A stretch of 62,272 nt of DNA from a bacterium (lineage in GTDB: Bacteria; Bdellovibrionota_C; UBA2361; SZUA-149; JAQTWB01): positions 1 through 62,272 of the forward strand of contig JAQTWB010000010.1 of NCBI GenBank assembly GCA_028689495.1, in the 5' to 3' direction. Numbering within the stretch: the stretch's first letter is position 1; every line of letters begins with the position of its first letter. Positions 3,193 through 49,619 of the stretch are shown one piece after another. The notes below the pieces were generated by a model that saw only the letters and a program-made list of their open reading frames with translations, ran no database searches and had not been told where the DNA came from. A program made the position numbers and the translations under genes.

Positions 3193-3327
3193 CTATGTGA
3201 AGCTCCGGGTAAAGTTCAGAGAGTAATCCAATTCTAGTCTTGGTTTTAGGTTGTTTTATAAGAGATAAAAATTTGATAGTTAACTCTATTAAGGGGCTAC
3301 TCTCCAATAAATATTGCACATGAACCT

Positions 3328-4329
3328 ATGGGATGCATATTGAACATGATTCGAAACGAAGAAGAAAGAACATCCCAATTTATCGATCAACGAGTCTGCA
3401 AATTATGCGATATCCATGATTTCGAGGATCCTGAGTTTGGGAAATTGGCAGTTGATATTTTTGGAGATCCTGCGATTTCAGCCCTGCATCACAGAAAACT
3501 TTGGGAGTTCACAATTACAGTAAAGGCCCTTCAGCGATATGGACTCTGGAATAGAGACTCTAGAGGTTTGTCGGTAGCAGCAGGGTTCGAAAGAGTTCTT
3601 TACTATATGACAAATTTCACAGGAAGAATTGTTGCCACAGATATTTACGGCGAAGGTGATTTTATAGATTTGGAAGCAACAGGGGACTTTCTTATCAATC
3701 CCGAGAAATACAGACCATACGAATATGAAAGAGAGCGACTTAGTGCTCTCAAAATGAATGCATTAAATCTACATTTCCCAAAAAATCTTTTTGATTTTGC
3801 TTTTTGTCTTTCATCAATTGAACACTTTGGCGGTGTATCTAATGCTGCTGTTGCCATTTCTGAAATGGGAAATGTTGTTCGTCCGGGTGGTTTAGTCATC
3901 GTAACTACTGATTGTTCTATTGATGGATCCAGTAGCGATCAAGTGTTCTCTCCCGCTGAAATCAAACGGCTGGTCAAAAAAAGTGGGTTGGAGTTGGTTG
4001 AAGATATTGATTTTTACATATCGCCTGATTCTCAGGGCCTATTATTGGACATGTTAAAAGATAATTTAGATTCACTTCCTCACATTAACTTAAAGTTCAT
4101 GCGGTCCAAATTTACGTCAATTTGCCTTGTATTCCAGAAAAAGGGCCGTGAAGACAATATCAAGAGGATAGACGATCAAGAGTTTGATCGAACTATTTCC
4201 AAGCTATCATCGGAGCAATACCCCACAAAACTACCGATCTGGGCTTACTGGGGTATTTTAAAAGTTAACCTCTTTGCCCGATATCAAAGGGGACTTTTCC
4301 GAATCATGAAGCTTATGGGGAATACTTAA
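3328..4329 (+). CDS. Class I SAM-dependent methyltransferase-like protein in an AT-rich patch.
   Basis: 333-aa ORF. Motif I-like GLSVAAGFERVLYYM, motif II-like GRIVATDI, FDFAFCLSSIEH and VRPGGLVIVTT resemble Methyltransf_11/23 folds. The surrounding 3.2-4.6 kb is clearly lower in GC than its neighbours. Confidence 0.5.
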   Translation: MGCILNMIRNEEERTSQFIDQRVCKLCDIHDFEDPEFGKLAVDIFGDPAISALHHRKLWEFTITVKALQRYGLWNRDSRGLSVAAGFERVLYYMTNFTGRIVATDIYGEGDFIDLEATGDFLINPEKYRPYEYERERLSALKMNALNLHFPKNLFDFAFCLSSIEHFGGVSNAAVAISEMGNVVRPGGLVIVTTDCSIDGSSSDQVFSPAEIKRLVKKSGLELVEDIDFYISPDSQGLLLDMLKDNLDSLPHINLKFMRSKFTSICLVFQKKGREDNIKRIDDQEFDRTISKLSSEQYPTKLPIWAYWGILKVNLFARYQRGLFRIMKLMGNT

Positions 4330-4606
4330 CAAATCCCAATTGATGGCATTTTGAAGGCCAAATCGAGATGGGCTCGTTTTACTTCTCCAAGCATTTTTCG
4401 CATATTCTTCGACCTCGATCTCCATCGAGAAACAGGCCAGAGAATAACCCGACTCCATTTTCACTGACTATTTTCATTCGTAGGAAGATCCAATTCCTTG
4501 GAATTTGTTGATTATCGTTTCAGCTTCACATGACGATGTCGACGTTTGTTCGCTGTATCGGAAACGTTAGGTTTTTCAACGAGTTTTTTAAAAAGAGGTA
4601 AGTATA

Positions 4607-5416
4607 ATGAATCAGTTAAATGCACATCACGACTTGGAAGGACTGGCGGGTTCGCCTGTCCTGGGTATCGTCAGTGGATTTGGTCCGATGGCAGGTACCG
4701 ACTTACTCCGCAAGGTGATCGCCAACACTAATGTCAACGAGGATAAAGAGCACCTGCCTGTCATGTTACTATCTGTCCCACCTGAAGGAAGTGACTTTCT
4801 CGGCGGAAAAATGAAAGTCAATCCTGGCACGCGAATCGGGAAAACATTACTGGCTATGGAGGCGATGAATGTTTCTATTGCGGCAGTTGCCTGCAATACT
4901 ATTCACGCCCCTATCATCTTTGATGAAATTGTCAGGGTCCTAAAAGACGCCGGAGCAAAAATCAAACTACTGCACATGATAGGTGAAGTAACTGATTTCT
5001 TAAAACGGAGTAGTATCCCTATAAACAAAGATGATGCGAAGATTGGTCTACTGGCAACCTCGGGAACTATCAAATCGCGAATCTATCAAGACCACCTTAA
5101 CTCGGCGGGATATTCGGTATTACTCCCTGACGAAACAACTCAAACGCAAGTCTATGATGCTATTTACAACGCGGATTTCGGTATTAAAGGGCACTCTTAT
5201 CCAATAAGCGCTGTCGCAATAAACTACCTGTCCGCGGCAGCACGTCACTTGGTCGATCGGGGGGCAAGCTGCATTGTTGTTGGTTGCACGGAACTGCCGC
5301 TTTTCTTCTCCGAACCATTTTTTGAAGATGTGCCTGTTATCGATGCCACGAATATCCTTGCTCGTGCATTGGTTCGAGAGGCAGCACCAGGTAAATTAAA
5401 ACTAATCGCCGAGTAG
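4607..5416 (+). CDS. Aspartate/glutamate racemase family protein (aspartate racemase-like).
   Basis: N-terminal GIVSGFGPMAGTDL and the two catalytic-Cys motifs AVACNTIHAP and VVGCTELPLF typical of the Asp/Glu racemase family. SD-like GAGG upstream of the ATG. Confidence 0.8.
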   Translation: MNQLNAHHDLEGLAGSPVLGIVSGFGPMAGTDLLRKVIANTNVNEDKEHLPVMLLSVPPEGSDFLGGKMKVNPGTRIGKTLLAMEAMNVSIAAVACNTIHAPIIFDEIVRVLKDAGAKIKLLHMIGEVTDFLKRSSIPINKDDAKIGLLATSGTIKSRIYQDHLNSAGYSVLLPDETTQTQVYDAIYNADFGIKGHSYPISAVAINYLSAAARHLVDRGASCIVVGCTELPLFFSEPFFEDVPVIDATNILARALVREAAPGKLKLIAE

Positions 5417-5489
5417 TGCCACTGGGGCAAGTTGAAAAACTTGTCCCGATTTTCATTTTAAGGACTTGAATTCAGCAACAAACACATTG

Positions 5490-5690
5490 TCATCGCCGAT
5501 CGATCGCATAACGACCGTCGTCGCGCAATTCGTAATTCAGCGGCGACATCAACACAAACGGGCGGACACAAGGCCCGCGCCCTACGATAGACAACAGCAA
5601 TTTGAATGTGCCTGTGATTGATATACACCAAACACAACGACCGTTGTCGAACAAGTCGTACATCAGCGACAATATCAATCTGCAGATCTG
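5490..5690. repeat. Repeat family A, copy 1: about 1.6 tandem copies of a ~115-bp structured unit.
   Basis: The unit contains hairpins acaacg-ac-cgttgt and gggcggac...gcccgcgccc and the core cgccctacgataNacaacaNcaatNtgaatgt. A second locus lies at 45851-46000. Confidence 0.6.
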
Positions 5691-6132
5691 CGTGAGGAAA
5701 GTTCTCATTTATTAAAACGCAATGGCAAAAGATGAGGCATCAACAGAAAAACGCTTTATAAAACTAAATATAATGTCCGGAAGATGCGCAAAGGGCAAAA
5801 TCCGACCGAGAATCCCTTCTCAATTGTACCATCTCAGACTTAACCTGACAGACACTGTCAGAACGCCTTGAATTCCAAAAAATTTACTTCACGATGTGGT
5901 GAAGGCAAATCTGTTTGGAAGTTCAAGGCTTTTAACTCCCATGCCTACCAGAGATTTGCCTGAACCTTGTACGTATTCATCGTGGTTATCTTGTCCGGTC
6001 GACTGTCGACCCGGACATCTCAATCGGCAAAATTGTCTAAGCAATTGCACGTAATTTCACAACTGAAACAAGTTTTGCCCGAATATCTTGTGAATGGCTA
6101 CGGTAGCAAGATCTCGAACCAGTAGAACATGT

Positions 6133-6684
6133 TTAACTGCTACAACTGCTACAACTTGAGGTGTCTCCTCCACCGGTATCAACATCGTTATTGTTAGCTG
6201 TGCTGTGCTGAGCGCTGCCCGTATGGGTCGGTGCATCATTGCCAACACTGCCGTGTTTGGCAGCAGGACTGCAATCACTACTACTGTTATCGATGTTATT
6301 CGGCGTCGGTGTTTCAAAATGACTGCTTAGTCCGGGCGCGTCCTGCGGATCGTTGCCTATCATCCACCACATCATTAACAAATGATCTGCCAGGTTGGAT
6401 GGTTCATCTTCGAGATAGCGGTAATATTCGGTGCGAAATGTACTGGCCGACGAACCGTTATAGCGAACTGACTGCAAACGTCGACGATTATCGGGTTTGA
6501 TTTCGACTGGCAAAAATTTCAGCAGAATAAGACTTGCCAACAGGCACGCCCTGTCCTCACTACTATTTGCGGCAGTGTAGTTCAAATCATCGACATAGCC
6601 TCTTAATTCAGAGCGATTCAAAACTCCGTCTTTTGCCCGTTTAAAAATAAACTGCAGCTCGGTGTAGCTTAAAATGTTGCTCAT
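6133..6684 (-). CDS. Hypothetical protein with a Cys/Ser-rich C-terminal tail (DTSSCSSCSS). Paralog of 48699-49136.
   Basis: 183-aa ORF. The central LLASLILLKFLPVEI block aligns with LLAMLFMIRFIPEDL of the paralog. Both end in a CX2CX2C(X2C) Ser-rich tail. Confidence 0.5.
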   Translation of the reverse strand: MSNILSYTELQFIFKRAKDGVLNRSELRGYVDDLNYTAANSSEDRACLLASLILLKFLPVEIKPDNRRRLQSVRYNGSSASTFRTEYYRYLEDEPSNLADHLLMMWWMIGNDPQDAPGLSSHFETPTPNNIDNSSSDCSPAAKHGSVGNDAPTHTGSAQHSTANNNDVDTGGGDTSSCSSCSS

Positions 6685-7209
6685 TGCGTTCTCCCGTGGA
6701 GTTAGAAAAAAAACTGGTTGCTTACACCCGTCACATGCCGGGTTCTTTGCTAACCATTACCGAGGCAACGCATTGCCGCAGTAATGGTTAGCAAAGTAGA
6801 ACACTTAAATTGTCGTTGAGTGTATGCTGCAAACCTTGTCTGTGATGCCGTAATCAGAAATAGTCGCAGGGATGACAACTGTGAACTACCAACCATTCTT
6901 GATTACGGTTTCGGAATATCTACCCAAAGGGCTCGTAGGCGAGCAAAATAGTAGGGAACTATTAGGATGTTTGGCTAATGAAGTCAAGATTAGGTATCCG
7001 TGGGCAGATTTTTTTAATCTCAAGGCGTCATGACAGTCTCTTTCAGTTGAAGTCTGGACCAGTGCAGACAACCAGGTTCGGCAAGGGCATTTCAATGCTG
7101 ATAAAAAGCCCATAAATGAGAGACCAGGTGGTCCCTCATTCATGGCCAATGCAGTTTGAACAACCTCAAAAAATGCACTCTGACTGCTGTTATATGGGAT
7201 GAGCTGACA

Positions 7210-8355
7210 CTACCCTTCGGTGGAGTCGCTCAACATGGCTGGGGTCACAGACAATGTTCCCCCATGTTCTCCAACGCTTTTACCGGCCAGATAAAGCTTG
7301 ATCACCTGTAAAACAACATCCTTGTTCACCTCGGCACCACAGGCGCTGAGGCAGCTTGTCATCAAACGGGCAATCTTAACGCCTTCTTTGCTACCTTCTT
7401 CTTCCGCCATCTGCCGACGAAGCTCGTTGTTTTTCCCACTTTCCTGAAGCTCGGTCGCTTCATTCTTTAAAGCGTTCATACGAATCTCATGCTCGGCCTG
7501 ATCAATCGCTTTCTTGGTATTGATCGTCGCCGCGCGGTTGAGAATCTCCTGCACACTTCGATCTTCCGGCATCCAGCCACGCAGCTGAATTTTGGAGATT
7601 TCAAGACCATACTCAACCATTTCTTCCGTGATGCTATTATCCATGAGTTGTTCGATTAATCTGCCCGGCTCGGCCTTAAAATCGTCGAACGTGACAGTAC
7701 CGACAAGCTTGGTTACTCCGGTCATGATTGTATTAAACATAGCGCCAAACGGGTCATCCGTGCTGTTTGTGAATTTGCCGAGGTTCGAAACCTTGAAATA
7801 AATCATTAACTTCACAATCAGCGGAGTTTGATCAGTTTTTGTCCGAGCGGCAACTGAGAAATAGGCTTGAGTCGGTTTGAGACGGACCACCTGAAACCTG
7901 AGATGGCGCGGCTCCTTACCTAACCCATCACTATCCCCACCGCCAGTCAGACAGAATGTGTGTAACTTTTCGTCGGGCTTCACATAAACGCAGTTTGAAA
8001 CTTCCCCGACGTTACCATCGGGAACCTTGCCGCCGAAGTAGTAATTTTGCTTACCATCGCCACCGATGACAACAATGGCTTCGTTTTCAGCCAGCTGAAA
8101 GCGGCTATGTGGTTCCATGTTGCCATCAGGATGAATGTGCAACGCCGCAGGCCCATTGATCACAGTATCTACGCCTGTCTCATCGTAGACTGAAACCCGT
8201 TGCTCCTGATGTATCGCCTGAAAGGTAAAAAATCTTACGTTGCACCAGGGCGGCAGATATCTTGGCCCATCGACTATTACTTCTTTGGAAAAAGGGCTTG
8301 AAACAAGGGCGCGTCGACCCGATGGAATAAACTTGAAAAGCTTAGTTATAGACAT
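7210..8355 (-). CDS. SPFH/band-7-like or major-vault-protein-like domain protein. The start is uncertain; the ORF extends to 8514.
   Basis: The C-terminal region (TFDDFKAEPGRLIEQLMDNSITEEMVEYGLEISKIQLRGW...AIDQAEHEIRMNALKNEATELQ) resembles the SPFH / MVP shoulder with a coiled-coil tail. Upstream repeats (VYDETGVDTVINGP..., IVVIGGDGKQNYYFGG) look MVP-like. Family assignment is tentative. Confidence 0.4.
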   Translation of the reverse strand: MSITKLFKFIPSGRRALVSSPFSKEVIVDGPRYLPPWCNVRFFTFQAIHQEQRVSVYDETGVDTVINGPAALHIHPDGNMEPHSRFQLAENEAIVVIGGDGKQNYYFGGKVPDGNVGEVSNCVYVKPDEKLHTFCLTGGGDSDGLGKEPRHLRFQVVRLKPTQAYFSVAARTKTDQTPLIVKLMIYFKVSNLGKFTNSTDDPFGAMFNTIMTGVTKLVGTVTFDDFKAEPGRLIEQLMDNSITEEMVEYGLEISKIQLRGWMPEDRSVQEILNRAATINTKKAIDQAEHEIRMNALKNEATELQESGKNNELRRQMAEEEGSKEGVKIARLMTSCLSACGAEVNKDVVLQVIKLYLAGKSVGEHGGTLSVTPAMLSDSTEG

Positions 8356-8802
8356 TGTAATAACCTCTTGTCCCGTAGGACTAAAAATGAAAATGGAGTG
8401 CCAATCTCTCCAACAAGGCCGAAGGCTCTGCTGCCTTAGGCCGTGCTGGAAAGTCCCACTACACCAAATTTTTACTGGAAATTCTTTTAAAGAACGGACA
8501 GCTAAGAAGAACATCCGCTGTTATCACAAGCAGTAATCCCATCAGTAGATCCTTTGCGGGAACAAAAACCATTCAAAACTGCGGGCACTTCTTATCATGC
8601 AACAACACGATGTTTCAACAAACAGCCGAGCCATAAACCAGAACAGCGTAATGCTCCCAACTCACCACGGACTTATGTAATAAATCCGTGTAATTGACTT
8701 CTGGTCTCCAGAAAAATCGCCTAGGTATGGATGATGCTGGTGTAATAAACCACTTTCAGGAGCAGAGAATATCCTTATTCTCTGCATTCCATAATTTAGA
8801 TC

Positions 8803-9150: not shown

Positions 9151-9488
9151 AACGTTTTCTCCTCTCATAACAAGAATGTGCTCCTGTGGTTGCCAGAAAC
9201 TGTGCACCAAAAAATGCTCATAAAACCTCCATAGTGAAATGTGAAAATAAGTGCCTTGGATACTGCAAACGCATGTGATCGTCTGGCCAAAAAATTGAGG
9301 GGGAAAACAAAAAACATGTTTACACCAGCCTCAGCTCAGGAGTTGAGCAGAGGCCAGCTTGGGTTAAGTGCCCGAAATAAAGATAGTTGGAAGGATCAGG
9401 GGTAATGCGACGAGGCGTTCTAGCAGAAAATTGGCGAAAGGCGAATGGAGCCTGACTTGAAAATCGGAATGGCTGGATGAGGTGAAAG

Positions 9489-9590
9489 CGAAAATGGGAC
9501 CGGGTTACTTTTACCCATAACGAAAATGGGCGAAAATGGGACCGGGTGGCGAAAATGGGACCGGGTTACTCGAAAATGGGACCGGGTTAC
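9489..9590. repeat. Repeat family C, array 1: GAAAATGGGACCGGGTTAC x4 with short variable linkers (reverse-complement orientation of GTAACCCGGTYCCATT).
   Basis: Direct reading. The same core is seen at 43607-43748 (x5), ~44335-44360 and ~46721-46750. Confidence 0.7.
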
Positions 9591-9654
9591 TTTTACCCAT
9601 CACTCCGACCAGGCCAATCATGCAGTTAGCACAAAGAAATCACCTGGTTATCTA

Positions 9655-9740
9655 CCCCCTCAAAAGATAGTCTTAACTTTTAGTCAAAAAATCAAAGATT
9701 ATTCATTTTTTTCATAATTGAAACGGCATAGCGACTGCCG
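9655..9740. repeat. Repeat family D copy (CAAAAG..GTCTTAACTTT..AATCAAAGA..TTTTCATAATTGAAACG).
   Basis: About 80% identical to 12628-12712. Shorter relatives (CCATTTCAAAANNGGTCTTA[AC]C) occur at 48041-48070 and 49459-49492. Confidence 0.55.
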
Positions 9741-9761
9741 GCCGTCAAGGAGCCCAAATCA

Positions 9762-9910
9762 TAACCTCAAAATGGGAGTGTTGCGAAATTAGCATTTCGC
9801 CAGGATTGACTTCCGTCAATCCACTTTTTCGCATCTACGATACGAAAAAGTCTCCCCTCTATTAGTTTTTCTTTTGTAGGGCCAAAATGGCCCTACATTT
9901 ACTGCGCTTG
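9762..9910. repeat. Repeat family B, copy 1: a ~150-bp structured element with three hairpins (gcgaaat-tagc-atttcgc; ttgac-ttccg-tcaa; gtagggcc-aaaat-ggccctac).
   Basis: Near-identical to 45554-45693. The two copies bracket the ~36-kb defence/accessory segment. Confidence 0.65.
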
Positions 9911-10013
9911 GTATTCTTTTTAGCGCGCAGGCATCCAGCTTACGCTGTCTGCATTTTGGGTGTGGTGTTCAACAGACCCAAAATGCGCCGGGGAACGACG
10001 GAACTCTCGCAAC

Positions 10014-11957
10014 CTACATCCTGTCTCGTACGTTGATCATCAGCGGCATATCGCCCGAAAGTCCCCACTGCTCATACACTTCCAGCCCCACTCCATTGAC
10101 ACTGCGCTGATACCACTGTCCCGATGACGGACGATAGACTGCGATATCAGCCAGGCCATCACTTTCCAGATCACTGGCAAGTGGCAAATCACCCGGCAGA
10201 CCGAACTGCACGACAGTGTTTTTGTTGTGACAATCGTATGAAGTGCGCGACGGACAGAAATACCAGTTGCCCGATTCCGGCCTCCAGACAGCAAGGTCAA
10301 CCTTGTCGTCTCCGTCAAAATCGCCGGGAATTGGCCGGTCGCCGGACAAGCCCCACTGGTAAGAGTATGTGCTGGCCTCTTCTCCTTCCTTGTGAACCTT
10401 GATGTACCAGGTTCCATTCCCCGGCCGCCAGACGGCGAAGTCGGTCATGCCATCGTTGTCGTAATCAAGTGAGAGTGGCACATCACCGGGTAGCCCCCAC
10501 TGTTCAACACGGTATGAGTTGTCGGCAAAGCGGATATACCAATTCCCTTCGCTCGGTCTCCAGACGGCGTAATCGTTAATGCCGTCTCCATCAAAATCTC
10601 CTTCCATCGGCACATCGCCCGGCAGTCCCCATTGCACAACGCGGTAACTGCTGTCCGCGTGACGGATGTACCAGTTTCCTTCGCTCGGCCGCCAAATAAC
10701 GAGCTCACTGGTCTTGTCGCCATCAAAATCACCGCGAAGCGGCACGTCCCCGGAAAGACCCCACTGAACCATGCTCACCGATTCGGAGAAGGGCTGCCTG
10801 ACATACCAGACGCCGTTTTCCGGGCGCCAGACGGCGATCTCGTCAACCTGTTCTTCTGTTTCAGCAGTAACTTTCATTCTGCGCAAACGGTCGCTCAGCG
10901 GATATGGCTTTAGTATCACCTCTCCGACGCGATCATAGCGATTGCCGTTCTGGCGACCACCCCAGGCGAGAATATGGTTGTGGTCATTAAGCGCCAGCGC
11001 CGAAGTAATGGTCCATGCCGAGCCTGAAACCAGAGCCGGAGTCAGATCCACCAGTCCGCTTTTCGTCCCGACAAGCGGCAAAGCCGAACCGCTACCAAGG
11101 TAGCTGCTGCCGACAATCACACCGGAGTTATTGACGTCGTAGACGACGACATGACTGCCGGCGAAGGGGATGTTCTCCACCGTCGGAGTCTGTGCCGCCG
11201 TGTCGAGATAAAATGTCTCGCCCTCGCCAACTTCACCGACAATAAGGCCATCATCATTTACCGCGTATGGCTTAATCGAGGTATTGCCCACCCAGTTCTG
11301 AATCACGGGAGCAGTGGCTGGTGCGTCGTAAAACATAAATTTATTCGCATAATCCCAGCCAACCAACAGTCCATTATTGTTGATGTCGGAAACTGTCCCG
11401 TAGGGCAAAACAGGATAAAAGGCCGATTGGATATTGATTTCGCCTGCTTCTGTCTGCCCCTGACGATGGCGACAGGCATAATAACCTTCCGACTGAACCC
11501 AGCAGACACTTGCTACGTACTCCCCGCTACCACTTATCGCCGTTGGCATATGCATGGAGGCGTAAGAAGTTGAACCTTTCCCATAAAATGAACTCAAACG
11601 GCCAAGCTCAGTGGTGTAACTGTAAGAATAACCACATATGGAACCGTCATCCGCAACGCCTGTCACCACACCATTCTCCCCGTTCGTCCAGCGCTGGCCG
11701 CTTATCTCTGGTGGCTCAACAGCTGCCTGAAATATTTCCTGAGTACCCCTGATGTAGCTGAAAAGATGTCCACCTGATGGAACGCGATCGAGGTTATCGA
11801 TCTTTCGCTGAACAATTACGCCGTAGTTATAGCCCGCACCGGTGCCGACATGAATTGTCGCAAGAGATTCCGCCGGCAGCGGAGATGAAGACTGGGCATG
11901 TAGATGCTGCGGCAGCAGTAGCATCAGGGACAAGACGATATATTTTTGCAATTTCAT
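10014..11957 (-). CDS. Secreted FG-GAP/VCBS-like repeat protein (beta-propeller type).
   Basis: Signal peptide MKLQKYIVLSLMLLLPQHLHAQS (start chosen at 11957). At least six C-terminal repeats of the form WRPxxGxWYxR...QWGLxGDxPxxGDFDGDGxxDxAVWRP. Confidence 0.7.
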   Translation of the reverse strand: MKLQKYIVLSLMLLLPQHLHAQSSSPLPAESLATIHVGTGAGYNYGVIVQRKIDNLDRVPSGGHLFSYIRGTQEIFQAAVEPPEISGQRWTNGENGVVTGVADDGSICGYSYSYTTELGRLSSFYGKGSTSYASMHMPTAISGSGEYVASVCWVQSEGYYACRHRQGQTEAGEINIQSAFYPVLPYGTVSDINNNGLLVGWDYANKFMFYDAPATAPVIQNWVGNTSIKPYAVNDDGLIVGEVGEGETFYLDTAAQTPTVENIPFAGSHVVVYDVNNSGVIVGSSYLGSGSALPLVGTKSGLVDLTPALVSGSAWTITSALALNDHNHILAWGGRQNGNRYDRVGEVILKPYPLSDRLRRMKVTAETEEQVDEIAVWRPENGVWYVRQPFSESVSMVQWGLSGDVPLRGDFDGDKTSELVIWRPSEGNWYIRHADSSYRVVQWGLPGDVPMEGDFDGDGINDYAVWRPSEGNWYIRFADNSYRVEQWGLPGDVPLSLDYDNDGMTDFAVWRPGNGTWYIKVHKEGEEASTYSYQWGLSGDRPIPGDFDGDDKVDLAVWRPESGNWYFCPSRTSYDCHNKNTVVQFGLPGDLPLASDLESDGLADIAVYRPSSGQWYQRSVNGVGLEVYEQWGLSGDMPLMINVRDRM

Positions 11958-12283
11958 ATCTCGGGCCATGATTTGTAGGTGGCAATTCAAATGATGTGGT
12001 TCTTCGGGCCATACCACAGTAACGATCTCAAAAAAGCAATGAGAGACTGGTTTATACTGCTCGAGATTAAGGTGTTCTAAATCGGGGAAATTAATGTGCG
12101 ACGACTATACACATTGCCATGACTGGAATGGTGGGTGATACTTCGTGCATAAGCATCGCACCGAAAAGTGTGTCGAGATATAAATGTGGGCCGTAACCAG
12201 GACAGGGCGATATGTTTTTGCGCGCTCATATTTCAGGCCTTACTGCTCGTCATTAAATAAACGCTGAAGCCATAAGGAGAAAA

Positions 12284-12583
12284 ATGCACTTCATAATTAT
12301 TGCCCGTGACGGCACAGACGCAGAAGCGGCCAATCGTAGACAAAATGCCCGTGAAGCCCACCTGAAAAATATTGCCGACAATCGGCACCACGTGCTGATG
12401 GGAGTGGCAACTCTTGATGAACAAGGGCAAATGAACGGCTCCGTGCTTGTTGTCGATTTTTCCGATCGCGAAGCTCTCGACCGCTGGCTGGCCGAGGAGC
12501 CCTATGTTGTGCAACAGGTCTGGAAGGAGATCGAGATTGTTCCGGGCAAAGTTGGACCGGCGTTTTTGAAGCAGCTGGATTGA
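12284..12583 (+). CDS. YciI-like family protein.
   Basis: 99 aa, MHFIIIARDGTDAEAANRRQNAREAHL...GSVLVVDFSDREALDRWLAEEPYV. The size and pattern fit the YciI/dimeric alpha-beta-barrel family. Confidence 0.7.
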   Translation: MHFIIIARDGTDAEAANRRQNAREAHLKNIADNRHHVLMGVATLDEQGQMNGSVLVVDFSDREALDRWLAEEPYVVQQVWKEIEIVPGKVGPAFLKQLD

Positions 12584-12715
12584 CCAAGAAATGTGCCGGC
12601 GCCCATGTGCGCCGGACAACTAAACCATATGCCGTTTCAAAAGGGGTCTTAACTTTCAGCTGAAATAATCAAAGAATTTTCAGCCTTTTCATAATTGAAA
12701 CGCTATAACAGAAGC

Positions 12716-13867
12716 TCACAAGTCTCCTTCACGAAACACATCCAGATAGGGCTTGAACACGAACATCCGGTTTCGACTTTGTCCTGTGGTTTCTTTTAAA
12801 ATATTGTGCCTGCACATCAAAGCAATGAGCTCGTTTGCCGGGCCATAATTGACCTGACAAACCTTGGCAGCTTGTTCGATATTGATGAAGGGGTGCTTGA
12901 ACAAATGTTGCAGAAGGACATAGCCTCTGGAGGAGCGCCTTCCAAACTGGGTCTGTATCAGATTCTCTATTTGTAGCTTCAGCTCAATGATCTTTTTTAA
13001 CGCATCGCAGGCATCCGTTGCGGTTTGCTCGACTCCGACCAGGAAGTACTTTATCCATTGCATCATATCGTTCTTTGTTCTTACAAAAGTAAGATTGTCG
13101 TAGTAGAGGTGCTTGTTCCTTTCGAAAAAGACCGACAGATACAGCAGCGGCTGCTCCAGCATTCCGACGCTCACCAGGAATAATGTTATGAGCAGTCTTC
13201 CAATTCGGCCATTGCCATCCAAAAACGGATGTATCGTTTCAAACTGATAGTGAGCTATTGCAATGCGAATCAGTTCCGGCAACTGCAATTCGTCGTTGTG
13301 GATGAACATTTCAAGATCAGTCATCAGATCCGGCACAAGGTCCGGATGAGGAGGAATAAATGTCGCATCGGCAAGACTGGCTCCACCGATCCAGTTCTGA
13401 CTGGTGCGGAACTCACCGGGCATTTTATGTTGACCTCTTACACTGTCCAGAAGAATGCGGTGCACCTGCTTCAGCAACCGCGATGAGATCGGCAGCGTCC
13501 GGAGTTCCTGGATGGCGAGATTAAGAGCCGTAATATAATTGTGAACCTCTTTCCAGTCGTTTCGTCGCTCGGGATTGATTTCCTCCTCAGGAAGTAGAGC
13601 TTCATCAATGTTTGTCTGCGTCCCTTCAATTCGGCTTGAAAGAACCGCCTCCTTTGTCACATGCAGCTGGATAAAAAGGTTGATATCCGGAACCAACCGG
13701 GCGCAGGCATTCAACTCACCCAACTTGACCGCACTTTTCTCAAGTAAATGATTGAGCTCCACCGACGACCATTCCCAGGAGCTGTTAATCCTGGTTGGGA
13801 CAAAATATTTATACTGGTACCCCTTTTCGTAACTTCCGGCGCTGTATTGGCTTAAATTTATTGACAT
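12716..13867 (-). CDS. Fic/DOC family protein (putative AMPylase) with a C-terminal wHTH.
   Basis: Canonical Fic motif HPFLDGNGRIGR, inside ...AHYQFETIHPFLDGNGRIGRLLITL. Confidence 0.85.
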   Translation of the reverse strand: MSINLSQYSAGSYEKGYQYKYFVPTRINSSWEWSSVELNHLLEKSAVKLGELNACARLVPDINLFIQLHVTKEAVLSSRIEGTQTNIDEALLPEEEINPERRNDWKEVHNYITALNLAIQELRTLPISSRLLKQVHRILLDSVRGQHKMPGEFRTSQNWIGGASLADATFIPPHPDLVPDLMTDLEMFIHNDELQLPELIRIAIAHYQFETIHPFLDGNGRIGRLLITLFLVSVGMLEQPLLYLSVFFERNKHLYYDNLTFVRTKNDMMQWIKYFLVGVEQTATDACDALKKIIELKLQIENLIQTQFGRRSSRGYVLLQHLFKHPFINIEQAAKVCQVNYGPANELIALMCRHNILKETTGQSRNRMFVFKPYLDVFREGDL

Positions 13868-13904
13868 AATTCGGTATCAGGACCTTGGTTGCCATGATGG
13901 CAAA

Positions 13905-13996
13905 CTGAAAGTGAATAGATTGTTATTTCATTTTGTAGCACCGAAAGTGAAATAACGAAAACATTATTTCACTTTACGGCACCAATATGAAATAAC
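13905..13996. promoter_or_regulatory. Putative operator/promoter upstream of fic: a perfect 11-bp-arm palindrome AAGTGAAATAA-N8-TTATTTCACTT (13945-13974) plus two further TGAAATAAC-like half-sites.
   Basis: Direct reading of inverted repeats 40-130 bp upstream of the fic start. Confidence 0.45.
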
Positions 13997-14054
13997 GGGG
14001 TTGCTGTTTTTGATAACCTCGCGCCATGCCTTCCCCGGGATCTGCCCGCCCAAG

Positions 14055-14144
14055 GGTCAGACCGAACGTGGTGCAACAGGTCTGGAAGGAGATCGAGATT
14101 GTTCCGGGCAAGGTCGGGCCGGCATTCTTGAAACAGGCGAACTA
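14055..14144 (+). pseudogene. 3'-terminal stub of a second yciI-like gene (…VVQQVWKEIEIVPGKVGPAFLKQAN*).
   Basis: About 85% nt identity to 12506-12583, the 3' end of the intact yciI. There is no upstream coding continuation. Confidence 0.5.
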
Positions 14145-14151
14145 AGCCAAA

Positions 14152-14772
14152 CTACTCACCGACCATGCTCAATTGCTTTCCATCAAACTGCAAGACAGGC
14201 TTCCATGGCCCGCCAGTTGGCCCGACACTGATAAAGGATTTCTCGTAACTGCCGTTGTCGTATGTCTGATATGAGGTGCAGTCTTTGATATCCGCCGACT
14301 CCTCGGCGCTTACTTCAGGCCAGGCCGAGATTTCGGCATAGCTGCCATTTTTCTCCAGCCGATAATATTTATACTCCTGACAATTGGGCTCCTCCTTTGG
14401 GCAACCGTGCAGCATGAACACCAGACTATCCCCCGGCATCAGCCTTGGTGTCACGGAAAACCGCGAGGCATCATCGCGCCAGCGTGCGGGCGCCGCAATT
14501 GCTACAACCCGCTCCAACTTGCTGGTTTCAGCGGCATAAAGATAAATCTCGGCCTTCACATCACTCACCGATGGAATACCGCGACTCCAGCCAGTCATGT
14601 CACCAAGCAAGGGATAGTGGAGATTATAGCTCGTCAAACCAACGGCAATTTGAGCGCACTCCTTTCCGGCACTATCACCGCTGACCCTGACCGAGAGCTC
14701 CGCCGGACCTTTGCAGGCAATGAGGAAGAGCAGTAGCAGAGCCGTGAGCGGGGGGCGAAATGGGGAATTCAT
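14152..14772 (-). CDS. Hypothetical lipoprotein.
   Basis: Signal peptide plus lipobox: MNSPFRPPLTALLLLFLIAC|KG. Confidence 0.45.
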   Translation of the reverse strand: MNSPFRPPLTALLLLFLIACKGPAELSVRVSGDSAGKECAQIAVGLTSYNLHYPLLGDMTGWSRGIPSVSDVKAEIYLYAAETSKLERVVAIAAPARWRDDASRFSVTPRLMPGDSLVFMLHGCPKEEPNCQEYKYYRLEKNGSYAEISAWPEVSAEESADIKDCTSYQTYDNGSYEKSFISVGPTGGPWKPVLQFDGKQLSMVGE

Positions 14773-14904
14773 TCTCAGGTCGCTCCACTTGAAAGTCATG
14801 CGTGGTTGATATGCGTTTTACGGATGTATTTAAGTCTGTCATACCTGATATCGGCAAATGACTGCCAGCTGGAAATTTGGTGTGTGGGACCCGGCTCCAG
14901 TGTT

Positions 14905-15816
14905 TTACTCTTCGTTAAAATAATCTGTATCGACGGCCTTAAGTTGAAATGTCTTCCTAGTAGACACGCCAACACCAAAATCAATCATATATTGGGCAAG
15001 CTGTTCGCCATCGATAAGAACAATTTTACTATCAAGACCAGAGGCGAAATCTCGCGCGCCCTGACTGAAAGTTGAAGTTGTGATAAACACTCCTTTACGC
15101 GCTCTGACACCCTGGAGAGTACCAGCGAACTTTTGAATTTCCGGTCACTGAACTGACTGCTCCCAGCGCTTCGCCTGAATGTAAATTGTATCAAGGCCCA
15201 AACGATCTTCTTTAATGATTCCGTCAATGCCGCCATCGTTGGAGTAAGATGTCGCCTCGGCATTACCTTGCAGATCTCCGCCGTAACCCATGGCTACCAA
15301 TAGATCGACAACCATCTTCTCAAAGAATGCCGGTGAAGCGGACTTGACCTGTTCGAGGATTTCGTCAGCAAGCTGAGAATGTATCTGCTTATAGTAGTAA
15401 CTCAGCTGTTCATCTGGAGTCCGTTCGGACGGTGAGAGGATGGCTTGCCGAGAAACGGGTTCCTGTTCATTACTTTTGACCTTGAACTCGAGAAAATCTG
15501 AAAATCGCGAGAGCAACTCATTATCAATCCCCTCCGGCCCTTCCAACAACACCCCCTTACCCCGCGCGGTAATTTTTACCGTCCCGCGTCGTGGTGACTC
15601 CAACAACCCCGCTTTCTTCAGATAGGTTTTGGCCCAGCCAACCCTGTTGCGCATATAGGTTGACTGTCCACTTGGAAGGCGGCTCTTTCGCTCCTCCTCA
15701 TCCAGAGCAAAATGCACCGTCATCGCCTCTACGCAATCATTAAATGTGTATATCTCACCATTCTCAATATGTTGAAGAAGTGGCAGCATAATTGTTTGAT
15801 AATCAGGAATCGGCAT
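14905..15816 (-). pseudogene. mrr: mrr, type IV methyl-directed restriction endonuclease, interrupted by an in-frame TGA (15145-15147).
   Basis: The N-terminal Mrr_N region (MPIPDYQTIMLPLL...) and the catalytic region (GIDGIIKEDRLGLDTIYIQAKRW...) are in the same frame as the downstream PEIQKFAGTLQGVRARKGVFITTSTFSQGARDFA...IVLIDGEQLAQYMIDFGVGV. A single TGA sits where Mrr proteins have the Arg of the conserved G-R-PEIQ segment, consistent with CGA>TGA. Confidence 0.8.
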
Positions 15817-32769: not shown

Positions 32770-34311
32770 CTACTTCCGTATCGCTTTTAGCATCCGCATT
32801 CCTTTACGGGTCAGGCGGTATTGCTGTTTTTTGCTGCGCGGTGCTTCGGGAAGTGTTCGTTCCAGAGCGGCCACTTCCTCTAACAGGCGAACAATTGCTT
32901 TCTTGTAATTCCCAGTGCGTGAAGAGTAACCGAGAATGCTTAGCAGCTCGGTTGAACCTCTCGGAAAGGCTTCACATGCCTCCAGGATCTTTCGCTCTAT
33001 TTCGCTCAACTCATGGGCCTCATCATGGGCCTCATCATGGGCTATACCGAGTGACTCGGGGTGAACTGGCAAACGAAAGAGGAAGTAACTGTGCTCTTCA
33101 TCTGTTTCAAATATTGGCTGGGGCGAACCGTTTCTTTCAACGGCGCGCATGATCTTGGGAATGCCGGTTGAGCGCCCCTCAGTCAGATCTAACTCTTTAA
33201 AGAACTCACCAATTCGACGATTCCTGTAGCGACGGCTAATTGCCTTGCCCATGCGCAGGTCCGCCATTCGGATCGAGCGATCCGGGCCGGGAAAACTAAG
33301 AATTACCAGTTCATCGGGTGAGATACGGACCTCTATGGGTTCGCGCTCTTCGTAAGAGCGATGATAAACAGCGTTGACCAATGCCTCTTCAACCGCCGCG
33401 TAGGGAAAGTTCCAGATGCGATCAGCTTCCGCTCTGTTCGGGTGCTTGATAATGGTCTCTTTCAGATAATTTCTCTGTATGTGACTCAGGGCATCTCGCG
33501 TCATACGAGCCAGGGGCCCTGTAAACACCTTCTCTTCGAATTTATCCCCACCGGGACCGTCCGGAAACCAGACCACATCTATTTGGGTGGCGGGAAAGAA
33601 TGATTCAGGGTGCTCATTAAAAAACATCAGCCCGATATTTTTGGGAAAAGCGGCTTCGGTTCGCCCACCAACAACATTCATTTGGCGGCCAAGTGCCTCG
33701 ATCGATATCGTCGAAGCATCATCTGCGAGATCGCTGCCAACCTCGCGCAAAAACTCTTCGATCAACCGCGGGGATAGATCCTCCATGCTCGCCCTTTGAT
33801 TGTATCGATCGTCGAATGGAACAGTTGCCGCCAAACCAATCAACTCACGCTCATCATCATTCCTGGCACGTACCGTGCTCGATTGCCTGCGAATGTAGTA
33901 GGCCCAGTCGGAGGACGTTTCCGATAGGCTTACTCGCGCTTTGTAGGGACGTGTTTCACCGCCGGGGGCCCAGATCGCAAGTATCATCTTGCCACCAATC
34001 GTAATCGGCGAAGTTAGCGGATGATACGCCGGTTGAATGGCCTGGTGCCCAAGCCTGAGTATCTCTTTCTGGATCTCATCGACCTGATTCTCGGCAATCC
34101 CCTTCGGTGGCAAAACAGGTTGTCCTTCGCGCTCTTCCACTCCGATGAGGATGTAACCGCCGCCTAGATTATGAAAATCGTTGGCAAATGCACAAATCGA
34201 ATGCAGGACATCCTGCGGGTTCCACCCTGCCTTAAACTCAAGTCGTTCCCATTCGACAGACTTGCCATGTAAAAGGTCGTCGACAGCTATTGGCAAGGCC
34301 AGTGTGCTCAT
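32770..34311 (-). CDS. AlbA_2 (Schlafen-like) plus HATPase_c_4-type protein, of the kind often annotated 'RecG-like helicase/transcriptional regulator', embedded between brxC and pglX.
   Basis: The N-terminus (LHGKSVEWERLEFKAGWNPQ...FANDFHNLGGGYILIGVEE) is typical of the AlbA_2 domain. A C-terminal wHTH-like region is present. The start is chosen at MSTLALP (34311), whose ATG overlaps the brxC stop (ATGA). Confidence 0.55.
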   Translation of the reverse strand: MSTLALPIAVDDLLHGKSVEWERLEFKAGWNPQDVLHSICAFANDFHNLGGGYILIGVEEREGQPVLPPKGIAENQVDEIQKEILRLGHQAIQPAYHPLTSPITIGGKMILAIWAPGGETRPYKARVSLSETSSDWAYYIRRQSSTVRARNDDERELIGLAATVPFDDRYNQRASMEDLSPRLIEEFLREVGSDLADDASTISIEALGRQMNVVGGRTEAAFPKNIGLMFFNEHPESFFPATQIDVVWFPDGPGGDKFEEKVFTGPLARMTRDALSHIQRNYLKETIIKHPNRAEADRIWNFPYAAVEEALVNAVYHRSYEEREPIEVRISPDELVILSFPGPDRSIRMADLRMGKAISRRYRNRRIGEFFKELDLTEGRSTGIPKIMRAVERNGSPQPIFETDEEHSYFLFRLPVHPESLGIAHDEAHDEAHELSEIERKILEACEAFPRGSTELLSILGYSSRTGNYKKAIVRLLEEVAALERTLPEAPRSKKQQYRLTRKGMRMLKAIRK

Positions 34312-49136: not shown

Positions 49137-49619
49137 CCCGGATGTTGCACGTAAGCCCGTCGTGAGGTTGTGAAGTCTGTGGCAAGGCGTGGGGGTAGAG
49201 AGTCGGGAATACTGGCGTATTCCCGAGCGAACGCTCCCCCGCGGATTGTCCAGAATTCGCGACCGCAGCAGGGTAATCAAAGAGTGCAAACTGTAACGAC
49301 AAAATTTAAACAGAATCGGTCGTTGCACTCGTAAATTCGCGGGTGAAACCTGTTTCAGCCGTGAACTTACGTGCAATTTCCTGGCTCGCCCGAATGTTGC
49401 ACGTAAGCAATATTTAGAAATGAGGTGATAATTGAATCAGGCAGGGAAGCCTGATTCTTTCGGCTATACCATTTCAAAAATGGTCTTAACTAGAAGCTGA
49501 AACGTTTTGACAACCAGGTTTTTAATTACACTGTCGTCGCCCATCGCAATTCCGATTGGGGAAATAGTATGTACCAAATCAAACTTGGCAGCCTCGCCTT
49601 GATTCAATATTCAGGGGGC

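What the first reader, a model, noticed from the sequence alone, without database searches (positions are those of the whole stretch)
12500..14145. The fic module is flanked by diverged direct copies of the yciI 3' end and has a palindromic operator
The last ~80 bp of yciI (12506-12583) recur at 14067-14144 with ~85% identity, enclosing a D-family repeat, fic (minus strand) and its upstream region. That upstream region carries AAGTGAAATAA-N8-TTATTTCACTT and two more TGAAATAAC-like half-sites at −40 to −130 from the fic start. This looks like an inserted, autoregulated fic cassette. Fic proteins are commonly controlled by a dedicated repressor or antitoxin, but none is encoded adjacent here.
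Basis: partly seen in the sequence, partly recalled or inferred. Interest (0 to 1): 0.5.

Follow-up and report, generated by a model that had tools for sequence, protein, structure and literature searches.

The report
Inserted self-repressing SoFic defence gene cassette
A 1.56-kb piece of DNA carrying one anti-phage "SoFic-type" Fic toxin gene and its own operator was inserted into the end of the yciI gene and brought a spare copy of that gene end; this is an ordinary, already known kind of defence gene, although the insertion footprint recurs around related fic genes elsewhere.

Summary
The segment 12506-12583 (yciI 3' end) recurs at 14068-14144, with 66 of 78 bases identical and a 41-nt exact core. 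The perfect palindrome AAGTGAAATAA-N8-TTATTTCACTT lies at 13945-13974, with further half-sites beside it. A relative (L005, about 89% identical) has yciI directly abutting the downstream gene, so it is an empty site, and 1562 bp were inserted here. All 7 differences in the first 23 repeat codons are synonymous, so the two copies are two functional alleles, one of which came in with the insert. [quoted passage not shown] It matches the PADLOC SoFic defence model at E=4e-118 and sits beside a BREX/Mrr/GmrSD island. The same palindrome architecture lies upstream of fic relatives in unrelated contexts. Its half-site variants track the first residues of the predicted recognition helix. The missing regulator is therefore most likely Fic itself, as shown for CccR and suggested for SoFic. 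No antitoxin, integrase or transposase is present. In 10 of 59 related loci fic is also bracketed by locus-specific gene-end duplications (controls 4 of 376). Verdict: a new member of a known kind, with a modestly interesting recurrent insertion footprint.

The parts
12284..12583 (+). yciI (99 aa, Pfam YCII). Its last 78 nt are the left repeat copy, so the present gene is a hybrid of a resident body and an insert-borne 3' end.
12506..12583 (+). Left copy of the direct repeat, the insert-borne replacement 3' end of yciI (...KQLD*). Sequence to its right has no homology to the empty site.
12509..12549 (.). 41-nt exact core shared with 14071-14111. It is the likely crossover segment if integration was by a single crossover.
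12596..12615 (-). G+C-rich hairpin (7 G-C pairs) followed by a T-containing tail, terminator-like for fic. It lies between the convergent fic and yciI.
12637..12702 (.). 'D-family' repeat copy in the fic 3' flank, 82% identical to 9660-9725 with a partial copy at 49465-49502. It is absent from other fic loci and from L005, so it is specific to this genome or lineage.
12716..13867 (-). fic: class II Fic AMP-transferase of the SoFic type (Fic_N, Fic and C-terminal winged helix; H213PFLDGNGRIGR224; S77SRIEG82).
13909..13996 (.). Operator array of alternating half-sites AA(A/G)TGAAATAA at 13909-13919 (degenerate), 13923-13933 (-), 13945-13955 (+), 13964-13974 (-) and 13985-13995 (+). The perfect 11-N8-11 palindrome is 13945-13974. 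Same-orientation sites are 40-41 bp apart.
13963..13991 (-). Promoter-like site (TTCATA-17-AATAAT with TG, 9 of 12 matches) that overlaps the half-sites. The assignment is weak.
14001..14067 (.). G+C-rich distal end of the insert. The novel joint to the native yciI remnant lies at about 14064-14068.
14068..14144 (+). Right copy of the repeat, the displaced native 3' end of yciI (...KQAN*). It is contiguous and collinear with the empty-site relative L005.
14152..14799 (-). Native neighbour gene (215 aa, no family hit, signal-peptide-like N-terminus). It is convergent with yciI in the empty site and now lies upstream of fic on the same strand.

Best explanation
A 1562-bp DNA segment was inserted into the last 78 nt of yciI. 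It contains one gene, a SoFic-type class II Fic AMP-transferase, together with its promoter and operator, a terminator-like hairpin, and a copy of a yciI 3' end from a related lineage.

Recombination within, or next to, the shared yciI-end sequence left yciI intact by using the incoming end. It pushed the native end (14068-14144) to the far side of the insert. Two routes give this product. One is a single crossover of a circular or permuted copy within the 41-nt core. The other is recombination anchored by homology on one side, with an illegitimate joint at about 14067/14068.

The Fic protein is held in check in two self-contained ways. First, the N-terminal SSRIEG helix blocks the active site, as in other class II Fic proteins. 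Second, a dimer most likely binds through its C-terminal winged helices to the array of AA(A/G)TGAAATAA half-sites that overlaps its own promoter, and so represses its own transcription. By homology the gene serves as a stand-alone anti-phage (abortive-infection type) SoFic system at the edge of a BREX/Mrr/GmrSD defence island.

Shown here: the repeat, the insertion, the domain content and motifs, and the conservation of the operator with fic. Inferred: DNA binding by Fic, repression, defence activity, and the recombination route.
For: Insertion:
- L005 is collinear at about 89% identity and has yciI directly followed by the neighbour gene. The three-way alignment switches from the left copy to the right copy across the repeat.
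- All 7 differences in the first 69 nt of the repeat are synonymous third positions. Under neutral decay of a fragment this has P of about 2e-5 to 1e-4.
- The insert has lower G+C than its flanks.

Identity of the gene:
- Pfam Fic_N and Fic.
- PADLOC SoFic model at 4.3e-118 over the full length.
- PDB SoFic at 1e-35 over residues 46-376.
- AF2 model with pLDDT 84.8, and Foldseek TM 0.75-0.78 to SoFic. It also matches 7cb8 and 7xux.
- The catalytic and inhibitory motifs are invariant in 30 homologues.

Operator:
- It is unique in the window.
- The same 12-N8-12 palindromes, often two of them 40-41 bp apart, lie upstream of fic in L086, L089, L087 and many of L006-L085. These loci have different neighbours.
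- Half-site variants go with the residues at the start of the predicted recognition helix (340-345): NY[GR]PAN with GTGAAATAA, S[YF]K[AS]AN with GTAAAATAA, [TS]KK[SA]A with GTAAACT.

Precedents:
- CccR represses its own promoter through a palindrome (PMC9755527).
- The SoFic dimer binds the 100 bp upstream of its own gene. That fragment carries ATGTCGAT half-sites at -107, -68 and -28, also about 40 bp apart.
- SoFic is a stand-alone defence system.

No small conserved ORF lies next to fic. No integrase or transposase is present in the window.
Against: No binding or expression data exist for this protein.

The covariation between half-site and recognition helix is confounded by phylogeny, because the groups are also clades.

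The protein scores 178 bits against the NCBIfam SoFic equivalog, whose cut-off is 550 bits. It is only about 28% identical to SoFic, so target and defence activity cannot be transferred with confidence.

The promoter assignment is weak, at 9 of 12 matches.

The recombination route is unresolved. Using L005 as outgroup, the seven synonymous sites form a mosaic (3 favour the left copy, 4 the right), which does not discriminate between the models.

The outer junctions rest on a single MAG contig.

A paper reports a 47-aa downstream antitoxin (AS1) for E. coli Sofic (PMC12249575). A very small or non-canonical ORF here cannot be excluded absolutely.
Confidence: 0.75

Rival explanations
1. The palindromes are the operator of an unlinked host regulator encoded elsewhere in the genome. 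Fic itself does not bind them.
For: No experiment ties this Fic to DNA. AT-rich palindromes are common operator types. The half-site TGAAATAAT also resembles an extended -10 element.
Against: The palindromes accompany fic into unrelated genomes and phyla, with different neighbours each time. A host-specific regulator would not follow them. Half-site variants change together with the Fic recognition-helix residues. Only fic is constant in the cassette. There are no further sites in 62 kb. CccR and SoFic bind their own promoters.
Confidence: 0.08
2. The cassette is a non-autonomous integrative element (CIME-like or satellite). It would have been integrated at a yciI-3'-end att site by a tyrosine or serine recombinase supplied in trans. 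The TGAAATAA repeats would be arm-type recombinase sites.
For: A gene 3' end duplicated around an insert, with the insert supplying a replacement end, is the classic signature of integrase-mediated integration. One TGAAATAA also lies near the other end of the insert, at 12661. One related locus has the cassette at a tRNA-Met 3' end (L084). Another abuts an integrase gene (L029).
Against: No recombinase gene lies in the insert or anywhere in the 62-kb window. The TGAAATAA-type repeats go with fic, not with the target, in loci whose flanking repeats are entirely different. At least 12 different targets would need as many matching recombinases. The cassette boundaries relative to fic vary from locus to locus: 30-300 nt upstream and 5-200 nt downstream. 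That does not fit defined att arms.
Confidence: 0.1
3. There was no horizontal insertion with a foreign gene end. A local duplication of the yciI end, or a long target-site duplication, arose in situ and the two copies later diverged.
For: The two copies are each other's closest relatives. Each differs more from L005 than from the other copy.
Against: 7 of 7 differences are synonymous. A non-coding remnant should decay at all codon positions. The last two codons and the stop differ completely, and beyond them only the right copy continues into native sequence. Later allelic replacement of yciI by recombination could mimic this pattern, so the rival is not fully excluded.
Confidence: 0.05
4. 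The arrangement is an assembly artefact. The true state would be an empty site plus a separate (for example circular) 1562-bp molecule, joined wrongly through the 41-nt core.
For: The window is a MAG contig. The Logan unitig ends inside both copies, so it cannot phase the outer junctions.
Against: The core is only 41 nt and has distinguishing bases 1 nt beyond each side, so it is shorter than normal reads and than the large assembly k-mers. Similar bracketed arrangements are seen in 10 of 59 independent loci from other assemblies.
Confidence: 0.03

Closest known systems
SoFic (Shewanella oneidensis SO_4266 / MloA) and the 'SoFic' stand-alone anti-phage defence system (Millman et al. 2022)
   Same: [quoted passage not shown] It aligns over the full length. 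The inhibitory (S/T)xxxE(G/N) motif and the HPFxDGNGRxxR motif are both present. It is a single gene without a partner, sits in a defence-island context, and has repeated half-sites about 40 bp apart upstream of its own gene.
   Different: It is only about 28% identical to SoFic and scores below the NCBIfam equivalog cut-off. The half-site sequence and geometry differ: AAAGTGAAATAA as 12-N8-12 here, against ATGTCGAT as 8-N3-8 plus single sites in S. oneidensis. Target (EF-Tu for SoFic) and phage specificity are untested here.
CccR (Yersinia pseudotuberculosis YPK_0951), a Fic toxin and transcriptional autorepressor (PMC9755527)
   Same: A class II Fic (S59ARIEG) with a C-terminal HTH. The dimer binds inverted repeats that overlap its own -35 and -10 elements and represses its own gene. 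This is the mechanism proposed here.
   Different: The CccR operator is AGATAATCAT-N26-ATGATAATCT, a single pair with a 26-bp spacer. Here there are 4-5 half-sites about 20 bp apart centre to centre. CccR is a T6SS-secreted effector that targets FtsZ. Nothing here suggests secretion.
Class I Fic toxin-antitoxin modules (VbhT/VbhA, FicT/FicA) and the reported EcSofic-AS1 pair (PMC12249575)
   Same: A toxic Fic enzyme that must be kept inactive in uninfected cells.
   Different: There is no adjacent antitoxin ORF here, and no conserved small ORF across about 85 related loci. The inhibitory helix is part of the same polypeptide.
Integrative islands, and cis-mobilizable elements without an integrase (CIMEs), that insert in a gene 3' end and restore it (own knowledge)
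   Same: The target gene end is duplicated as direct repeats around the insert. The incoming copy completes the gene.
   Different: The insert is 1.56 kb and has no recombinase, no defined conserved ends and no conserved att core across loci. Repeats differ in length (25-143 nt) and in target from locus to locus.

Membership tests
Fic/Fido AMP-transferases | Catalytic motif HxFx(D/E)GNGRxxR within a Fic fold | tested here: met
   H213PFLDGNGRIGR224 is present in the translation and invariant in 30 homologues. Pfam Fic hits at 1.9e-20. The fold matches solved Fic structures.
Class II Fic proteins (intramolecular inhibition) | Inhibitory helix motif (S/T)xxxE(G/N) in the same chain, N-terminal to the Fic core | tested here: met
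   S77-S-R-I-E-G82 lies at the C-terminal end of, and just beyond, predicted helix 62-80. S77, S78, I80, E81 and G82 are invariant.
SoFic-type Fic proteins with a C-terminal winged helix | Full-length similarity that includes the C-terminal wHTH domain | tested here: met
   phmmer to SoFic covers residues 46-376 at 1e-35. Foldseek gives TM 0.75-0.78 over 352 columns. The model has helix 330-337, helix 341-353 and a beta wing. Pfam SoFic-like_C on the isolated C-terminus is only E=0.05.
SoFic-type Fic proteins with a C-terminal winged helix | Orthology to S. oneidensis SoFic (NCBIfam equivalog NF046030, cut-off 550 bits) | tested here: not met
   The score is 178.6 bits, below the 550-bit cut-off. 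It is a relative, not an equivalog.
SoFic anti-phage defence system | Match to the PADLOC/DefenseFinder-type SoFic model, as a single gene | tested here: met
   PDLC03963 SoFic at 4.3e-118, residues 18-379. No partner gene is present.
SoFic anti-phage defence system | Protects cells against phage | not testable with these tools
   Only context is available. It lies next to a split Mrr, BREX type 1 and GmrSD. Relatives sit beside AbiC-like, helicase, PIN and type I R-M genes.
Autorepressing Fic regulators (CccR-like) | Inverted-repeat operator in its own promoter region | tested here: met
   A perfect 11-N8-11 palindrome plus extra half-sites lies at -42 to -129. It is conserved upstream of relatives.
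Autorepressing Fic regulators (CccR-like) | The protein binds that operator and represses transcription | not testable with these tools
   Indirect evidence only. Half-site variants go with recognition-helix residues. Precedents exist in CccR and SoFic.
Class I Fic toxin-antitoxin / Sofic-AS1 pair | Adjacent small antitoxin gene | tested here: not met
   No plausible ORF lies in 12584-12715 or 13868-14067. No small ORF is conserved downstream of fic across the loci.
Integrase-mediated integrative element | Direct repeats derived from the target gene end (attL/attR) | tested here: met
Integrase-mediated integrative element | Recombinase gene in the element, or a conserved att core and arm sites | tested here: not met
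   No integrase is in the insert or the window. Flanking repeats are unrelated between loci and the boundaries vary.
Insertion sequence / transposon / MITE | Terminal inverted repeats with a short target-site duplication, and a transposase | tested here: not met
   No inverted repeat pairs the two ends of the insert. The duplication is 78 nt and diverged. No transposase is present.

The most novel reading that the evidence does not exclude
The SoFic-type fic gene with its operator may be a recurrent, recombinase-less 'homing' defence cassette. It would travel with a 25-140-nt copy of the end of its neighbouring gene and re-insert in new hosts by recombination at that patch. This leaves the gene intact and produces diverged gene-end duplications.

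Such bracketing repeats were found at 10 of 59 related loci against 4 of 376 control positions. The targets were as different as yciI, secA, tRNA-Met, ssb, hsdM and hsdR. If this is general, it would be a simple, overlooked route by which single-gene defence systems spread into gene boundaries without any mobile-element machinery.
Probability: 0.25. Interest if true: 0.6.

Novelty: new member of a known kind. Interest (0 to 1): 0.38.

Why it matters
The result removes an apparent puzzle, a toxic Fic enzyme with no antitoxin and no repressor gene. The protein carries both controls itself, as an inhibitory helix and a DNA-binding winged helix that faces its own operator.

It gives a concrete, testable operator for a large and very conserved branch of SoFic-type defence genes. 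The operator is AAAGTGAAATAA-N8-TTATTTCACTTT, repeated about every 40 bp. A ready-made specificity series is also available, because half-site variants pair with recognition-helix residues.

It documents a clean occupied-versus-empty site pair for a single-gene defence cassette. It also shows that the same kind of gene-end duplication surrounds related cassettes elsewhere. This bears on how defence genes reach new genomic positions without integrases.

Tried and rejected
- **Arm-type recombinase sites.** I considered that the TGAAATAA repeats were recombinase arm sites, because one copy lies near the other end of the insert (12661). I rejected this because the repeats follow fic, not the target.
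- **Crossover point.** I tried to place the crossover using L005 as outgroup. The seven synonymous sites form a mosaic and are uninformative at about 10% divergence.
- **Genome collection scan with YciI.** It returned only relatives at 44-56% identity, so no close genome was found. An exact-protein look-up of YciI found nothing.
- **Logan unitig.** Its length of 1581 nt looked like a possible circle. Its ends are exactly the k=31 break points of the 41-nt core, so it says nothing about circular forms.
- **Rfam.** The search of 9300-14300 found nothing. The fold of the fic 3' flank is not unusually stable (z = -0.97).
- **Phage and plasmid collections.** They hold only distant relatives, at most 42% identical. 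Viral contigs hold relatives at 36-59% identity without the same palindromes.
- **AS1-like small ORF downstream of fic.** None was found here or conserved across loci.
- **Literature search** for Fic cassettes flanked by gene-end duplications found nothing relevant.
Full report
**1. The observation**

The window region 12200-14200 holds three genes:
- yciI, 12284-12583 on the plus strand, 99 aa, Pfam YCII;
- a fic gene, 12716-13867 on the minus strand, 383 aa, Pfam Fic_N and Fic;
- a 215-aa gene with no family match, 14152-14799 on the minus strand.

The last 78 nt of yciI (12506-12583) recur at 14068-14144. The repeat finder reports 69 nt at 90% identity. Counted to the two stop codons the copies are 66/78 identical, and they share a 41-nt exact core, 12509-12549 = 14071-14111. 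A 38-nt probe from the core matches only these two places, with none expected by chance.

The palindrome AAGTGAAATAA-N8-TTATTTCACTT lies at 13945-13974. It is the only match in 62 kb even at three mismatches. Related half-sites lie at 13923-13933 and 13985-13995, with a degenerate one at 13909-13919. TGAAATAAC occurs three times in the window, all of them here. For the latter, 12637-12702 is 82% identical to 9660-9725.

**2. It is an insertion, and the displaced fragment is the native gene end**

The window is a MAG contig. A YciI protein 85% identical to the window's is encoded on a Logan contig, L005. L005 is collinear with the window at about 89% nucleotide identity. In L005, yciI (10001-10300) is followed six bases later by the homologue of the 14152-14799 gene (10307-10927).

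L005 10228-11019 aligns with window 14073-14876, and L005 9997-10288 aligns with window 12280-12571. In the three-way alignment, L005 follows the left copy upstream of the repeat and the right copy downstream of it. L005 is therefore the empty site, and the window carries a 1562-bp insertion. The copy at 14068-14144 is the original yciI end. The copy that now finishes yciI came with the insert.

All seven differences in the first 23 codons of the repeat are synonymous third positions. For a decaying non-coding remnant this has a probability of about 2e-5 to 1e-4. Both copies therefore evolved as working gene ends, in different lineages.

An independent Logan unitig (L004) is 100% identical to 12520-14100. 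It ends exactly where a k=31 graph must break at the 41-nt core, which supports the inner junctions but says nothing about circular forms.

No tRNA, integrase or transposase gene is present anywhere in the window. No inverted repeat pairs the ends of the insert.

**3. What the gene is**

The protein has the catalytic motif H213PFLDGNGRIGR224 and the inhibitory motif S77SRIEG82. Both are invariant among 30 homologues. Three lines of evidence place it with SoFic:
- It aligns over residues 46-376 with SoFic of Shewanella oneidensis (E=1e-35).
- An AlphaFold model (pLDDT 84.8) superposes on SoFic with TM 0.75-0.78. It ends in a helix-turn-helix (330-337 and 341-353) followed by a beta wing.
- The PADLOC model for the SoFic defence system matches at 4.3e-118 over the whole length.

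The NCBIfam SoFic equivalog is not reached (178 bits against a 550-bit cut-off). It is therefore a relative of SoFic rather than an orthologue.

SoFic was described as a stand-alone Fic-domain anti-phage system (bioRxiv 10.1101/2022.05.11.491447). Immediately to the right lie an apparently split Mrr gene, a BREX type 1 system and GmrSD. Close relatives sit beside AbiC-like, helicase, PIN and type I R-M genes.

The family is very large and unusually conserved, at 65-77% identity across several phyla.

**4. The operator belongs to fic, and the regulator is probably Fic**

Upstream of the closest relatives, which have different neighbours, the same architecture appears:
- L086 and L089: AAAGTGAAATAA-N8-TTATTTCACTTT followed by AAAATGAAATAA-N8-TTATTTACTTT.
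- L087 and L088: two such palindromes.

Among 80 metagenomic loci at 50-67% protein identity, most of the closer ones carry one to three palindromes of the same 12-N8-12 form. These are commonly 40-41 bp apart, and they use variant half-sites such as GTAAAATAA, CTAAAATAA, GTAAACTAA, GTAAATTA and TGCAAATAT. The motif therefore travels with fic and not with the yciI target. This rejects the idea that it is a recombinase arm site.

The variants go with the residues at the start of the predicted recognition helix: NY[GR]PAN with GTGAAATAA, S[YF]K[AS]AN with GTAAAATAA, [TS]KK[SA]A with GTAAACT, and xxSTAxR with TGCAAATAT. This fits a cognate protein-site pair, although the groups are also clades.

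No other gene, and no small ORF, is conserved beside fic.

The published work gives the mechanism:
- CccR of Yersinia pseudotuberculosis is a class II Fic with a C-terminal HTH. It represses its own promoter by binding AGATAATCAT-N26-ATGATAATCT (PMC9755527).
- Dimeric SoFic binds the 100 bp upstream of its own gene (bioRxiv 10.64898/2026.07.09.737422).
- In the sequence those authors list, I find the half-site ATGTCGAT at -107, -68 and -28, with inverted copies at -137 and -57. The same-orientation copies are again about 40 bp apart.

A half-site spacing of 20 bp centre to centre is about 68 Å. That is close to the 70 Å separation of the DNA-binding helices reported for the CccR dimer. This last point is inference.

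A weak promoter-like match (TTCATA-17-AATAAT) overlaps the half-sites. A G+C-rich hairpin at 12596-12615 looks like the fic terminator.

**5. How it got there**

Two routes give the observed product. One is a single crossover between the resident yciI end and a circular or permuted copy that carries a yciI-end patch. The other is recombination anchored by homology in yciI on one side, with an illegitimate joint at about 14067/14068 on the other. I cannot separate them. With L005 as the only outgroup, the seven synonymous sites form a mosaic.

The donor was probably a related lineage. The two copies are closer to each other than either is to L005. The fic 3' flank also carries a repeat otherwise seen only in this genome.

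**6. A recurrent footprint**

In related loci, fic together with its operator is often bracketed by direct repeats of 25-143 nt at 77-100% identity, 1.3-1.6 kb apart. These repeats are unrelated from locus to locus. With spacing limited to 1150-1700 bp, 10 of 59 eligible loci show this, against 4 of 376 control positions in the same contigs (Fisher P = 7e-7).

The repeats are gene ends:
- the 3' end of ssb in a phage-like region (L025);
- the 3' end of a sulfatase-family gene (L012);
- the 3' end of secA (L048);
- the 3' end of tRNA-Met (L084);
- a 3' part of hsdM (L034);
- the 5' end of hsdR (L050).

Where the repeats are coding, their differences look like allelic differences rather than decay. 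The boundaries relative to fic vary, so there are no defined element ends. Seven of 76 viral-contig loci of more distant relatives show similar brackets. A literature search found no description of this pattern.

**7. Verdict**

The thing itself is a new member of a known kind: a SoFic-type, class II, self-repressing Fic defence gene. The operator architecture, its co-variation with the recognition helix, and the recurrent gene-end duplications are useful additions rather than a new category.

Noticed in passing
L009, L012, L019, L025, L026, L027, L029, L030, L034, L048, L050, L062, L084 (coordinates): fic plus its operator is bracketed by locus-specific direct repeats of 25-143 nt. The repeats are ends of neighbouring genes (ssb, secA, tRNA-Met, hsdM, hsdR, a sulfatase-family gene). 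The count is 10 of 59 loci against 4 of 376 controls.
   Followed up: partly
S. oneidensis SoFic upstream DNA, Table S2 of bioRxiv 10.64898/2026.07.09.737422: The promoter fragment shown experimentally to bind SoFic contains the half-site ATGTCGAT at -107, -68 and -28, with inverted copies at -137 and -57. The same-orientation copies are about 40 bp apart, as in the window's operator array. The preprint's main text and the supplement part read here do not point this out.
   Followed up: partly
window 12637-12702, 9660-9725, 49465-49502: A short repeat family of about 65-80 nt (the 'D-family'). All three copies lie in the same orientation downstream of minus-strand genes. One has flanking inverted arms (12628-12640 / 12695-12707). 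There is no Rfam match, and it is absent from L005 and from other fic loci.
   Followed up: partly
window 9489-9600; L005 11020-11060: Several tandem or near-tandem copies of GAAAATGGGACCGGGTTAC(TTTTACCC). The motif also occurs in the relative L005 at a different place, which suggests a lineage-specific dispersed repeat.
   Followed up: no
window 3196-8711 and 9455-12279 versus L005: Compared with the collinear relative L005, the window has two further large extra segments. One is about 5.5 kb with methyltransferase, racemase and Band-7 genes. The other is about 2.8 kb with a 667-aa FG-GAP repeat protein. The neighbourhood of yciI is therefore a hotspot of lineage-specific insertions.
   Followed up: no
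window 14905-15090 and 15145-15816 (minus strand): An Mrr-type type IV restriction gene appears split into two ORFs. The first has Mrr_N plus the first half of Mrr_cat. A separate 61-aa ORF looks like the C-terminal end. This is a probable frameshift or pseudogene between the fic cassette and BREX.
   Followed up: no
window 15953-39235: A BREX type 1 system. BrxL, a methylase with Eco57I/N6_Mtase/MmeI_Mtase domains (presumably PglX) and BrxB have Pfam support; PglZ, BrxC and BrxA are assigned from position, size and my own reading only. Several extra genes are embedded in it (DUF3644, an AAA_21 ATPase and four ORFs with no family). The presumed PglX ORF gives a weak IS200-like Y1_Tnp hit at residues 413-468.
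   Followed up: no
window 32770-34371 (minus strand): A 533-aa protein inside the BREX locus combines Schlafen AlbA_2, HATPase_c_4 and a weak Fic-like_C winged-helix hit (24.4 bits, below Pfam's 27-bit cut-off), a C-terminal module related to those of Fic proteins.
   Followed up: no
window 39818-41527 (minus strand): A GmrSD-type (DUF262-like N-terminal domain) restriction gene closes the defence island on the far side of BREX.
   Followed up: no
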